Of a stretch of DNA of 64,000 nt, positions 1,275-62,386 are shown one piece after another (positions within the stretch are counted from its first letter, which is position 1; the number at the start of each line of letters is the position of its first letter). Under the pieces are notes generated by a model. That model ran no database searches, had not been told where the DNA came from, and was given only the letters and a program-made list of their open reading frames with translations. The stretch lies in the NCBI RefSeq assembly GCF_009914755.1, contig NC_060927.1. The stretch is one strand, 5' to 3'. The translations under genes and the position numbers were made by a program. This DNA is from the human T2T-CHM13v2.0 reference genome, Homo sapiens.

Positions 1275-59270
<57,996 letters not shown>

Positions 59271-59793
59271 TACAAGGTCGGGGTGTCTATGCAAAGGAAG
59301 CTCAGTTTTCTTTTATTATGAGCTGCTTGTTTGAGTGGTGTAAAACTATGTGCTCTTCAATATAGTGCTAAAGAAGCCAGCTAATTTTATCAAAGCAGCA
59401 GCCAAAGAAGTCAGGACAAATCTTCAGGACTTGTGAAATGAACTGAAAGAGCTTGAAGCAGATGGAATTTTAATAGTTACACTATATATGCTCTTAGTAG
59501 GTTTTTTTCTTGTAGTGGAAACATAACTGTTAGCATATTTCTTAGGATGTTTTTTCTTGTCTTTTTAAATTCTTATTTCACTCATCCTTTACTCTCCCCT
59601 CAAGTATTCTACACTTTAATTTCCTGAAATAAATTTAAGGAAAAGGGAAATAGTAAAGAAGTAGGAATGGGTGCAGCACACCAGCATGGCACATGAATAC
59701 ACATGTAACTAACCTGCACATTGTGCACATGTACCCTAAAACTTAAAGTATAATAATAATAAAAGAAAAAAAAAAGAAAGTAAAAAAAAAAAA

Positions 59794-60130
59794 AGAAGTG
59801 GATATTCACGGAGAGCTATGAGGGGATAAAAGGGTATGATCTAATGGTAAGAAACTGGAAGAAACATAGCAAGTCATTTGTTCAGATTCTTCTCTGTGTC
59901 CCTGTGTCTCCAGAGATAAGGATGTCCTTTTCCTCCAGGTATACAGTGGGTACCTCTAGAATGAGGTTCTTATGACCTGCTTCCAGGGAAGGTCAGAGAA
60001 TCCTTCCTAGGTTTTATGACTTGTTTCTGGGAAGAAGTGCAGGAGGAAAGTGAGTGAGACTTCCCTGCTTCTGCTGTTTTCTCAAACATCAAGATGCCAT
60101 ATTTTGGAGTAGCATGTCTTAAATCTCATC
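59794..60130 (-). mobile_element. ERV1 (MER4/MER34/MER39-group) LTR 5' part, inside the transduced block
   Basis: Reverse strand begins tgatgagatttaagacatgctactccaaaatatggc, typical of this LTR group; truncated at the L1 A-tail. Confidence 0.7.
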
Positions 60131-60179
60131 ACCCGTCTCAGGTGCAGTTTCATGGCCATGAAGAAGACAGAAAGACCAC

Positions 60180-60502
60180 TCATACCTGCATAAGTATTAT
60201 CACAAACTTTCTTATCTTCTGTTTGTTCTCCTGAAAACCCATTTGTCTTTCCTAAACGAACCAATTTGTCCTTCCCATAGATGTCTTTCTCCCCCATTCC
60301 TTTCCCCTACTAAGTTAGGTATATAAGCCCCAAATTCTAACCACACTTTTCAGTTACTCATCACGGAACACTCCCACATGTGCGAACATTGTCCGCATAA
60401 ATAAGCTCTTTTCTCTTACTAATGTCTTTTTTTCAGTTTAATTTGCAGGCTCCTATTGAAATAACAAAAGTTGGTAGAGGAAAAAGTTTTTTCTCCCCTA
60501 CA
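60180..60502 (+). mobile_element. ERV1 (MER34/MER39-like) LTR 3' part, inside the transduced block
   Basis: gtatataagcc TATA box, ataaataa, end ggtagaggaaaaagttttttctcccctaca. Confidence 0.65.
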
Positions 60503-60998
60503 AAGGCCAAGAACATTTTGGCTTTATATTTATATTTATATTATAATGTGAATTGATTATAATTATAATGTGAATTGATAGAAATATATATATTTTTTTT
60601 CTGCCCCTGCTTGGCACATGACAGAACATGGGCATAGACAGACTGGCTATTGGTAATCCAGTCCTGGGAGATGATCAGGAGGCAGTACTCAATCCTACTT
60701 TCTTCTCTACAGCTTCCCATGGGCTAAAGAATTTACATGTCTGCCCACAGCAAATGTACTCAGGCTTCTACACTAACATAAGCCCACGGAAATGAAACAG
60801 AAAGGGACAGTTCATATGTTTCTGAATAGATCCAGTTGAATAGTCTCATTCAATTTGAGACTGTTGAACAACTGTTGTTGTTCTACATACATTTAAAGTC
60901 AGGGCACATGCGTCACTGCTTATTTTTCTTACTTGACATATTCCCTGCATTTCCATGTCTGCCTGTCCTTTAGATAAACAGTAAAAGTTTCCCATGTG

Positions 60999-61125
60999 CC
61001 AGTATTTCTCAAATGGTTTACATCAGAATCACCTGGAGGACTTTTAAGCTAGATTGTTTGGTCCCATCCCAGGGATTCTGAATCAACAGGTTTGCGATGG
61101 GTCCAGATAGTTTACTTTTCCAAGT
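60999..61125. mobile_element. MER5A-like relic inside the transduced block
   Basis: cagtatttctcaaa...catcagaatcacctggaggactttt...ggattctgaatcaacaggt. Confidence 0.65.
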
Positions 61126-62386
61126 TTACTAACAAGTTTGCCAAGTTCCCCCAGTTTATTACCATTAGACCATACCTTTTTGTCCAATCATTTAAAACAA
61201 ATTTTTATATAATAAGTTTTATTTGTATGTAATAAATTTTATTATATAAAAATAAGTTTTAATATATATTATATAAAAAGTTTTAATAAATACCTAATAT
61301 ATTATTTAATATGATAAAACTTATATTAAATGAAATTTTATGCTGTTCTCTTGTCAATCTGTCTTTTGTTATCTTGCTGGTGTGCCTGTCATGTGAGGGA
61401 CTGCAATCTGATATGCCTATTTTCCACAGTCAAAGCAATTACAAGAGAATTGTTACAATTACCCAGTTATGTCAAGAGATTTTTTTTTAATTCACTAAGG
61501 TAGAGATAAGGAGAATGTATTAAAATAGGATATTTTAATTATAAATGCATGACTGGGGAGGGGGTATTGTTTTTGAATAAAATATGAGGTTATTTGCCAT
61601 GACAAAAAAAAAAAGAAGTAGGAAAATCCCATGGAAATTTATGTTCCTTCTAACTTTTAAAACTACCTAAAAAATATAATTGATTTAAATTATATCTCAA
61701 TATTCCCCATTCTTTTATATCCCCTTAAATAGGTACCCATGAAGAGATTATGAACTACTTGAAGGTGGAGACTGTACGGTGGTGTGTTGGAGCTGGCTTG
61801 TAATGTCTTATGAGTGACAATCGTTAGTTTGAGGAATTTTGTGAGACAGTTGTCAAATTGTTGCTAGCTTGAAATCTGCGGCAATTGGAGTATTTACACC
61901 ATAGAAATGCTATAAGTGAAGACCTACCTTTCCCTTAAGAGCTAGTTGTTAAACCTTTACCAGCATACCACTGGACCTTGTCTAAAATTTCTTTGTGTTC
62001 CCAGTGTCTTGCCCAGTAGATACAAGATAAATATTGCCAGAATCAGATATCAGGAAGTAGTAAGAAAAGGAGTTAATATGCAAACTAAATCACTCGCTCA
62101 ATTGAATAATTGAGATCTTCTGTTCATTTGTTCCTTGGACCTTAATCATTTGCATTTTGGAGAAAATTTTTTCTGCTTTAAAAGTCTGTAATTTCAGTTT
62201 TTGTGTCGGGGAGAGGGAAAAACTATTTGTCTGTAGTTGCTTTTTGTGACAAAGTGAATACCCACTGGGCTAAGTTTCATATCTAAAGCTTGTCACTAAG
62301 AATTTTCATTTTTAGGGGTCAAAAACCTATTTTGAAAATAGTGTTGTGTGAATGCTGTAAGTGTTGTACATGTCTCTGGTTTCAGA

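What the first reader, a model, noticed from the sequence alone, without database searches (positions are those of the whole stretch)
59655..61624. L1 3'-transduction of ~1.8 kb of foreign DNA into the DZIP3 3' UTR
Seen: a ~90-bp L1 3' end (aatgggtgcagcacaccagcatgg...gtaactaacctgcac, which I recall as L1PA2/3/HS-type diagnostics) with its own A-tail ends near 59793. About 1.8 kb of non-L1 sequence follows, then AATAAA (61576), a CA 22 nt later, an A11 run (61604-61614), and an exact repeat of the 13-mer aaagaagtaggaa that precedes the L1 piece (59655-59667 and 61612-61624). The junction gt|aaag reads 5'-CTTT/AC on the bottom strand, an L1-endonuclease-like site. Established: L1 transcripts that read through their weak poly(A) signal carry 3' flank to new sites with two A-tails inside one TSD pair. 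Inference: one retrotransposition event split the ancestral UTR (59271-59654 plus 61625 onward). Repeat maskers would show it only as unrelated small fragments. I do not know whether this instance has been described.
Basis: partly seen in the sequence, partly recalled or inferred. Interest (0 to 1): 0.85.

Follow-up and report, generated by a model that had tools for sequence, protein, structure and literature searches.

The report
L1-carried chr12 DNA in DZIP3 intron
An old LINE-1 jumping event copied about 1.8 kb of chromosome 12 DNA, headed by a short LINE-1 tail piece, into the last intron of DZIP3; this is an ordinary kind of event, although the LINE-1 expected beside the chromosome 12 source is not there.

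Summary
An exact 13-bp target-site duplication (59655-59667 and 61612-61624) encloses a 97-nt L1 3' end, an interrupted A tail, 1.81 kb of non-L1 DNA, AATAAA at 61576, a CA 22 nt later and an A run.

The non-L1 DNA has one paralog in this genome: chr12 62920508-62922381, minus strand. Homology starts right after the internal A tail and stops at the terminal A run. Divergence is 43 of 1725 aligned sites, 2.5%. On chr12 the sequence runs on without an A run into a GU-rich stretch, so chr12 is the source.

The prediction of a young L1 directly upstream of the source fails. The chr12 boundary lies inside an old repeat that is continuous across it. No matching L1 3' end lies within 111 kb upstream.

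The insertion sits in DZIP3's last intron, 59277-61732, which follows the stop codon. It is not in UTR exon sequence.

Best reading: one L1-mediated event (about 0.95). It was most likely a 3' transduction from a donor L1 that never became fixed (about 0.7). Rivals are a template-switch chimera and a nested insertion. This is an ordinary member of a known kind.

The parts
59655..59667 (+). 5' target-site duplication AAAGAAGTAGGAA. Its last two A's overlap the first L1 bases (microhomology).
   Evidence: exact 13-mer, with only 2 copies in the window.
59666..59763 (+). Severely 5'-truncated L1 3' UTR end, about 97 nt, running through the L1's own AATAAA at 59758-59763.
   Evidence: 39 L1 3' ends elsewhere in the genome match from query position 25-30 (mostly 27); 1-3 mismatches in 95-97 nt to each of the 9 best copies (L012-L020).
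59764..59794 (+). Internal A-rich tail with interruptions: G at 59765, 59776 and 59780, T at 59781, then a pure A13 run at 59782-59794.
   Evidence: The homology with chr12 starts only after this tail.
59795..61603 (+). Segment derived from chr12 (the 'transduced' segment). Its start is ambiguous by up to 3 nt (59792-59795) because it begins with A's.
   Evidence: collinear with G000:C12:62920508-62922381, minus strand, with 43 of 1725 mismatches; the first 42 nt occur only at these 2 loci in the genome at up to 3 mismatches.
61576..61581 (+). AATAAA poly(A) signal used by the source transcript. Cleavage was at the CA at 61603-61604.
   Evidence: the chr12 copy has the same hexamer and CA, followed by a GU-rich stretch instead of A's.
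61604..61611 (+). Terminal poly(A) tail. The A run spans 61604-61614, but its first A may be templated by chr12 and its last three belong to the TSD.
61612..61624 (+). 3' target-site duplication AAAGAAGTAGGAA.
59277..61732 (+). Context: the last intron of DZIP3 (NM_014648.4), a 3'-UTR intron that begins 6 nt after the stop codon. The insertion contributes 1957 of its 2456 bp.
   Evidence: Hub RefSeq table supplied with the finding. One search shows the TGA at 59268-59270, GT at 59277 and AG at 61731-61732.

Best explanation
One L1-mediated retrotransposition event inserted a 1957-bp composite into the last intron of DZIP3, which was then about 499 bp long.

The template was most likely a read-through transcript of an L1 that once sat on chr12, minus strand, at about 62922381/2. 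That position is roughly 9 kb upstream of PPM1H exon 1. RNA polymerase passed the L1's own weak AATAAA. It continued for 1.87 kb and was cleaved and polyadenylated at a strong downstream site (AATAAA, CA 22 nt later, GU-rich element).

L1 ORF2p nicked the DZIP3 intron at 5'-CTTT/AC on the bottom strand. It primed on the terminal poly(A), copied the chr12 flank, the internal A tail and 97 nt of L1, and then stopped. The 5' end joined with 2 nt of microhomology, and a 13-bp TSD was created.

Shown here: the composite anatomy, the single TSD pair, the unique chr12 source with exact boundaries, and the direction of copying (chr12 to chr3).

Inferred: that an L1 lay at the chr12 boundary, and that this allele was polymorphic and later lost, leaving the empty allele seen in CHM13.

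The divergence of 2.5% places the event roughly between the gorilla and orangutan splits (species divergences recalled, not computed here). No function is indicated. It reads as a fixed, neutral enlargement of an intron.

The confidence of 0.7 is for the 3' transduction route specifically. A single L1-mediated event of some kind I put at about 0.95.
For: Anatomy:
- The order is TSD, L1 3' end, A tail, unique DNA, AATAAA, 22 nt, CA, A run, TSD.
- This matches the architecture described for a validated L1 3' transduction: TSD, L1, 32-bp poly(A), 138-bp transduction, second poly(A), TSD (passage in PMC7026601).

Source locus:
- Of the 54 matches listed for the 1810-nt query, only 2 cover it in full: the window itself and chr12 (40 of 1383 candidates were scored).
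- Homology starts at 59793 and ends at 61604.
- 43 of 1725 sites differ, K2P 0.0254, with 8 gap events (60520-60592 left out).
- chr12 has no A run after the cleavage site and carries tgtgttttggttttgg within about 25 nt downstream.
- chr12 is original genomic context, because an old repeat aligns across the boundary with a chr1 copy at 191 of 266 positions.

Age of the L1 piece:
- It differs at 1 of 97 nt from L012, L014, L016 and L018. That fits an age similar to the flank's roughly 1.3% per lineage.

Polarity:
- The chimeras that the one census I read set out to catalogue, and attributes to ligation or template switching, have the non-L1 part 5' and the L1 part 3' (passages in PMC11838501). 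That is the opposite order to this insert, so read-through is the simpler route here.

Absent donors are to be expected:
- Non-reference source L1s are tabulated in PMC9311842 (Table 4 passage).
Against: - The defining corroboration, an L1 immediately upstream of the source, is absent in this assembly.
- There is no scar or duplication at the chr12 boundary.
- No sibling offspring carry the same chr12 tag. The first 42 nt of the segment occur only at chr3 and chr12 at up to 3 mismatches, and no third locus matches the unique part of the segment.
- The chr12 boundary, tg|aagaag, is only a moderate endonuclease-type site.
- The interruptions in the internal tail all lie within 18 nt of the L1 AATAAA and are followed by a pure A13 run. 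That pattern also fits an ordinary L1 mRNA cleaved at its own site, as a template-switch model would need.
- No outgroup genome could be examined.
Confidence: 0.7

Rival explanations
1. Reverse-polarity chimeric retrocopy. ORF2p primed in trans on a polyadenylated intergenic chr12 transcript and copied it to about 62922381. It then switched template onto the poly(A) tail of an L1 mRNA, or the two RNAs were ligated beforehand. It copied 97 nt of L1 and the product integrated as one insert. On this reading no L1 ever sat at the chr12 source.
For: - The chr12 site is a clean empty site.
- The internal tail interruptions all lie within 18 nt of the L1 AATAAA, where a normal L1 mRNA would still be genome-templated, and a pure A13 run follows.
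- The chr12 part starts with A's (aagaag), which would give T-rich cDNA ends able to pair with a poly(A) tail.
- Template switching and RNA ligation are proposed mechanisms for L1 chimeras (passages in PMC11838501; abstract of PMC6789731 in the listing).
Against: - The census I read targets chimeras with the L1 at the 3' end and the other RNA at the 5' end, as cis preference predicts. This insert has the opposite order.
- The model needs trans-mobilisation of a non-genic, unspliced, presumably rare transcript lying about 7-9 kb upstream of the PPM1H start codon, plus a switch on top of that.
- I found no description of L1-5'/unique-3' chimeras in the passages read. I did not read those papers in full.
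Confidence: 0.12
2. Two successive events. A short 5'-truncated L1 inserted first and made the 13-bp TSD. Later an L1-mobilised retrocopy of the chr12 transcript inserted, in the same orientation, into that L1's A tail. Its own TSD would then be all A's and invisible.
For: - The final structure would look identical to what is seen.
- A-rich tails are endonuclease-type targets; for example GT|AAAA at 59781/59782 reads TTTT/AC on the bottom strand.
- The absence of an L1 at the chr12 source is then expected.
Against: - It needs a rare retrocopy of a non-genic RNA to land within a target of about 30 nt, in the same orientation. That is my own order-of-magnitude reasoning and was not computed.
- The right-hand A run is only 11 nt. 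It would have to hold the new poly(A) tail, the duplicated A's and the rest of the old tail.
- The L1 piece is as little diverged as the flank, at 1 of 97 nt against the 4 closest of the 9 copies compared versus about 1.3% per lineage. This gives no sign of an older first event, although 97 nt is weak evidence.
Confidence: 0.08
3. No retrotransposition at all. On this reading a DNA-level segmental duplication or a repair-mediated capture brought the chr12 DNA in, and the repeats and A runs arose by chance.
For: None specific. The only point in its favour is that no donor L1 was found.
Against: - The copy ends exactly at a canonical cleavage site 22 nt after AATAAA and is followed by A's that chr12 lacks.
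- An exact 13-bp duplication flanks the composite at an endonuclease-type site.
- An L1 3' end with its own tail sits at the 5' side.
Confidence: 0.02

Closest known systems
Partnered L1 3' transduction: a 5'-truncated L1 plus downstream flank inside one TSD pair
   Same: It shares the full architecture of L1 3' end, internal A tail, unique flank, downstream AATAAA, second A tail and one TSD at an endonuclease-type site. Compare the chr16:31,950,972 example and the hallmark list in PMC7026601 (passages). The flank maps to a unique locus on another chromosome. Most events in PMC9311842 are likewise interchromosomal (passage).
   Different: The source locus carries no L1 in this assembly. The L1 part is extremely short at 97 nt. 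The transduced part, at 1.81 kb, is longer than the 7-997 nt range reported for polymorphic events in PMC9311842 (abstract passage; that range is limited by short-read methods).
Chimeric L1 insertions (U6/L1, Alu/L1, mRNA/L1) formed by RNA ligation or template switching
   Same: Two unrelated RNA-derived parts lie in the same orientation within one TSD pair, at an endonuclease-type site, with a 3' poly(A) tail (PMC11838501 passages).
   Different: The chimeras that census targets have the L1 as the 3' part and the other RNA at the 5' end. Here the L1 is the 5' part and keeps its own A tail.
Processed retrocopy or orphan transduction of a non-L1 transcript
   Same: The 1.81-kb segment on its own looks like a 5'-truncated retrocopy of a polyadenylated transcript, ending at a poly(A) site with an added A tail.
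   Different: An L1 3' end with its own tail lies inside the same TSD pair. The source is unspliced, repeat-rich intergenic DNA about 7-9 kb upstream of the PPM1H start codon, and it is not a known gene.

Membership tests
L1 3' transduction | An L1 3' end in sense orientation at the 5' side of the insert, with its own poly(A) signal and A tail | tested here: met
   L1 homology runs from 59666 to the AATAAA at 59758-59763, and the A-rich tail runs to 59794.
L1 3' transduction | Non-L1 sequence follows the first tail and ends at a downstream poly(A) signal with a second A tail | tested here: met
   AATAAA at 61576-61581, CA at 61603-61604, A run at 61604-61614.
L1 3' transduction | One TSD pair encloses L1 plus flank, at an L1 endonuclease-type site | tested here: met
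   an exact 13-mer at both ends, with bottom strand 5'-CTTT/AC. The consensus is quoted as 5'-TTTTT/AA and variants in PMC7026601. One caveat: the flank begins AAGAAGTGGA, which partly resembles the TSD.
L1 3' transduction | The flank maps to a unique source locus where it is not followed by an A tail | tested here: met
   chr12 62920508-62922381, minus strand, 2.5% divergent, continuing as ...ccatgacactccactgtg...
L1 3' transduction | The source locus has an L1 immediately upstream in the same orientation (this corroborates an event; structure-based catalogues do not require it) | tested here: not met
   old repeat DNA is continuous across the boundary. The nearest matching L1 3' ends lie 58 and 87 kb away at 84% and 92% identity. 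Membership is therefore probable, not proven.
L1 3' transduction | An empty target site in outgroup species or haplotypes | not testable with these tools
   Only the window's own assembly is held. No other primate genome is available.
Template-switch or ligation chimeric L1 insertion | The non-L1 RNA copy is fused to the 5' end of a 3' L1 segment | tested here: not met
   The order here is L1 (5') then chr12 (3'). The polarity of the chimeras that census targets is taken from PMC11838501 passages.
Template-switch or ligation chimeric L1 insertion | Both parts lie in the same orientation within one TSD pair, with a 3' poly(A) | tested here: met

The most novel reading that the evidence does not exclude
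No L1 ever sat at the chr12 source. On this reading the insert is a reverse-polarity chimera. L1 reverse transcriptase began on an intergenic PPM1H-upstream transcript. It then jumped to the poly(A) tail of its own L1 mRNA, or used a pre-ligated RNA. The product would mimic a 3' transduction perfectly. If such mimics are common, catalogues that call transductions from structure alone would over-count read-through events and infer 'lost' source L1s that never existed.
Probability: 0.1. Interest if true: 0.5.

Novelty: new member of a known kind. Interest (0 to 1): 0.2.

Why it matters
L1 3' transduction is a textbook process. This copy is a fixed and apparently neutral intronic example, so it matters little in itself.

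It does have three modest uses:
- It marks a source site about 9 kb upstream of PPM1H exon 1 where an active L1 probably existed in an ape ancestor and was then lost.
- It is a clean presence/absence marker for hominid phylogeny.
- It accounts for 1957 of the 2456 bp of DZIP3's 3'-UTR intron, and it places two sense-oriented AATAAA hexamers there.

It also shows that the check 'find the L1 at the source' can fail for old events. When it does, three mechanisms remain that one genome cannot tell apart.

Tried and rejected
- **Donor L1 further upstream on chr12 (long read-through or splicing).** I scanned 126 kb, C12:62908000-63034000. Only two L1 3' ends match the piece, at 62980642 (84%) and 63009052 (92%). 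That is too diverged compared with the flank's 97.5% identity. Rejected.
- **Chr12 boundary as the edge of a repeat or a transcript start.** The repeat continues about 84 nt or more upstream in the comparison with L005, but not with L007 or L008. So the boundary lies inside a repeat.
- **Sibling offspring carrying the chr12 tag.** None were found.
- **Dating the L1 piece from the bodies of its best-matching copies.** Most of the 9 loci are themselves 5'-truncated, so the distances were meaningless. Only L016 and L020 were usable, at 3.8% apart. This is too thin to name a subfamily.
- **Distinctive internal tail as a tracer.** L020 (chr12:59.2 Mb) shares the first 19 tail bases. However, the hits were ranked by similarity to a query that included the tail, so this is probably selection bias.
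- **Literature.**
  - No paper links DZIP3 with an L1 transduction. 2 of 2 papers holding all three terms are unrelated by title and abstract.
  - Szak et al. 2003 and the published Hoyt et al. paper are not held.
  - The Hoyt preprint reports 183 highest-confidence L1 3' transductions in CHM13 (passages).
Full report
**1. The observation**

- AAAGAAGTAGGAA lies at 59655-59667 and again at 61612-61624.
- Directly after the first copy comes an L1 3' end. In a search of the window's own genome, 39 L1 3' ends at other loci align from query position 25-30 (mostly 27), which is window position 59666 (40 of 699 candidates were scored, and the 40th match is the window itself).
- The L1 piece runs to its own AATAAA at 59758-59763.
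- An A-rich tail follows, with G at 59765, 59776 and 59780 and T at 59781. It ends in a pure A13 run at 59782-59794.
- At the far end there is AATAAA at 61576-61581, CA at 61603-61604 and an A run at 61604-61614.

The 13-mer occurs only at these 2 places in the window at up to 1 mismatch. Shuffles gave a mean of 0.29, and 2 of 100 shuffles reached 2 or more matches. Both copies sit exactly at junctions that other evidence defines independently (see section 2), so chance is not a serious explanation.

**2. The 1.8 kb has a source on chromosome 12**

I searched the genome with 59794-61603 and got 54 listed matches (40 of 1383 candidates scored). Only two cover the whole query: the window itself and G000:C12:62920509-62922380 on the minus strand. 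The other matches are old interspersed repeats at 72-89% identity. They cover query positions 1-340, 340-710 and about 1335-1580.

- BLAST against the fetched chr12 DNA places the homology at window 59793-60525 (96.7% identity) and 60557-61604 (95.6%).
- A global alignment shows collinearity throughout, apart from an AT-rich indel zone.
- Leaving out 60520-60592, 43 of 1725 aligned sites differ. That is p = 0.025 and K2P 0.0254. There are 26 transitions, 17 transversions, 8 CpG-associated changes and 8 gap events.

On chr12 the sequence after ...ttgccatgac continues as actccactgtgttttggttttgg. This is a GU-rich stretch of the kind found downstream of efficient poly(A) sites, and no A run follows. 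The chr3 copy therefore ends exactly where a chr12 transcript would be cleaved, and it carries added A's. The direction of copying is chr12 to chr3, through RNA.

**3. The predicted donor L1 is missing**

Upstream of the chr12 boundary (minus-strand reading) the sequence is ...ctaggtttgatg|aagaagcggatattc... This is not an L1 tail.

The boundary lies inside an old repeat. An independent copy of that repeat on chr1 (L005) aligns continuously across it, at 191 of 266 positions, with the boundary at query position 139. So chr12 is an undisturbed 'empty' site.

Within the fetched 126 kb (C12:62908000-63034000), which reaches 111 kb upstream of the boundary, I found the following.
- Only two L1 3' ends match the L1 piece: 62980642 (84%) and 63009052 (92%), both in the same orientation.
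- The nearest L1-like DNA of any kind starts 4.7 kb upstream. It is old, at 74% identity to the window's own L1.

No third locus carries the first 42 nt of the segment at up to 3 mismatches, so no sibling insertions are detectable.

**4. Where the source and target lie**

*Source.* An ORF on L031 (5281-5529, minus strand) matches Protein phosphatase 1H chains (7kpr, 9hab and others) at E = 1.5e-28. It lies within a CpG-island-like stretch at 62913000-62914200. Its ATG maps to chr12:62913528. The source segment therefore ends 6,980 bp upstream of the PPM1H start codon, on the same strand. This is intergenic and repeat-rich DNA.

*Target.* By the hub's RefSeq table the insertion is in the last intron of NM_014648.4 (59277-61732). 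That intron begins 6 nt after the stop codon at 59268-59270, and no listed transcript has an exon there. The insert plus one TSD copy (59668-61624) makes up 1957 of the intron's 2456 bp, so the earlier intron was about 499 bp. 'Into the 3' UTR' is right only in the sense of a 3'-UTR intron.

**5. Age**

A copy-to-source divergence of 2.5% has a Poisson 95% range of roughly 1.8-3.4% on 43 differences (my arithmetic). From recalled figures, this lies between human-gorilla divergence (about 1.6-1.7%) and human-orangutan divergence (about 3.1-3.4%). I therefore expect the insertion in the African apes, not in gibbon or macaque, and I am uncertain about orangutan.

The L1 piece differs at 1 of 97 nt from L012, L014, L016 and L018, and at 2-3 nt in 95-97 aligned from the other five of the 9 best copies. 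This fits an age similar to the flank's. It gives no sign that the L1 piece is older than the flank, though 97 nt is weak evidence. I could not assign a subfamily. Only one usable pair of full bodies was available (L016 and L020, 3.8% apart).

**6. Mechanism**

The anatomy matches a partnered L1 3' transduction. The hallmarks and an example with the same order of parts are described in PMC7026601 (passages).

The target-site nick reads 5'-CTTT/AC on the bottom strand. That is a variant of the 5'-TTTTT/AA consensus quoted in that paper. The L1/TSD junction shares 2 nt (AA).

I rate a single L1-mediated event at about 0.95. Three routes could have produced the template.

(a) *Read-through from an L1 at the chr12 boundary that was polymorphic and later lost.* Source L1s are typically young and polymorphic (abstract of PMC4381410 in the listing). 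Non-reference sources are tabulated in PMC9311842 (passage). Absence about 10 or more million years later is therefore unsurprising. I give this about 0.7.

(b) *A chimera made by template switching or RNA ligation.* This is possible, but the chimeras that the census I read set out to catalogue have the L1 at the 3' end (PMC11838501 passages). It would also need trans-mobilisation of a non-genic transcript. About 0.12.

(c) *A later insertion of a chr12 retrocopy into the A tail of an older short L1.* This gives the same final structure. It needs a rare RNA to hit a target of about 30 nt, and it fits poorly with the short 11-nt right-hand A run. About 0.08.

A DNA-level origin is contradicted by the poly(A)-site boundary and the TSD (about 0.02).

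**7. What remains open**

- The internal tail does not separate (a) from (b). Its interruptions lie within 18 nt of the L1 AATAAA, where even a normally cleaved L1 mRNA would be genome-templated.
- The start of the chr12 part (AAGAAGCGGA on chr12, AAGAAGTGGA in the copy after CpG decay) resembles the new TSD (AAGAAGTAGGA). I read this as two purine-rich endonuclease-type sites, but I did not test that.
- Only outgroup genomes can decide between the routes.

**8. Novelty and score**

- No paper in the held library links DZIP3 to an L1 transduction.
- A CHM13-wide catalogue of transductions exists, with 183 highest-confidence L1 3' events (Hoyt et al. preprint, passages).
- The kind of event is textbook, and this copy shows no sign of function.

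I score interest at 0.2 and classify it as a new member of a known kind.

Noticed in passing
window 59793-59802, compared with 59656-59666 and 61613-61623: The chr12-derived segment begins AAGAAGTGGA (AAGAAGCGGA on chr12), which resembles the TSD AAGAAGTAGGA. A similar purine-rich word therefore occurs three times in the structure. This may reflect two similar endonuclease-type sites or chance.
   Followed up: partly
window 59268-59276 and 59277-61732: The DZIP3 stop codon lies 6 nt before the last exon junction, so the last intron is a 3'-UTR intron. The insertion enlarged it from about 499 to 2456 bp. It also put two sense-strand AATAAA hexamers (59758 and 61576) inside it.
   Followed up: no
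L031 5281-5529, minus strand (G000:C12:62913280-62913528); CpG-rich stretches at C12:62913000-62914200 and 62916900-62917400: PPM1H exon 1 (matching PDB 7kpr and 9hab, E = 1.5e-28) lies about 7 kb downstream of the source segment's poly(A) site, on the same strand. Any read-through from the source region would head toward the PPM1H promoter.
   Followed up: partly
window 60526-60592, compared with L009 3650-3520: There is an AT-rich indel zone. chr12 carries sequence that aligns against two gaps of 56 and 8 columns in the chr3 copy. The chr3 copy has an 18-nt word (ATTATAATGTGAATTGAT) repeated 22 nt apart, where chr12 has it once.
   Followed up: no
L009 4650-4940, minus strand (C12:62922649-62922937), compared with window 61131-61370: A second, more diverged copy (84-93% identity in pieces) of the repeat with the AT-rich core inside the transduced segment lies about 270 bp upstream of the source segment on chr12, in the same orientation. 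An inverted partial copy of the first repeat sits at C12:62922893-62923053.
   Followed up: no
L020 (G000:C12:59209246-59209359, minus strand): An L1 3' end 3.7 Mb from the source locus has a tail whose first 19 bases are identical to the internal tail here. The hits were ranked by similarity to a query that included the tail, so this is probably selection bias.
   Followed up: partly
window 24297-30034 and 50363-50465: The window holds other L1 sequence. A long element ends at about 30026 and its 3' end is 92.7% identical to the piece. A further 3' end fragment is 84.6% identical. Both appear older than the L1 piece in the finding.
   Followed up: no
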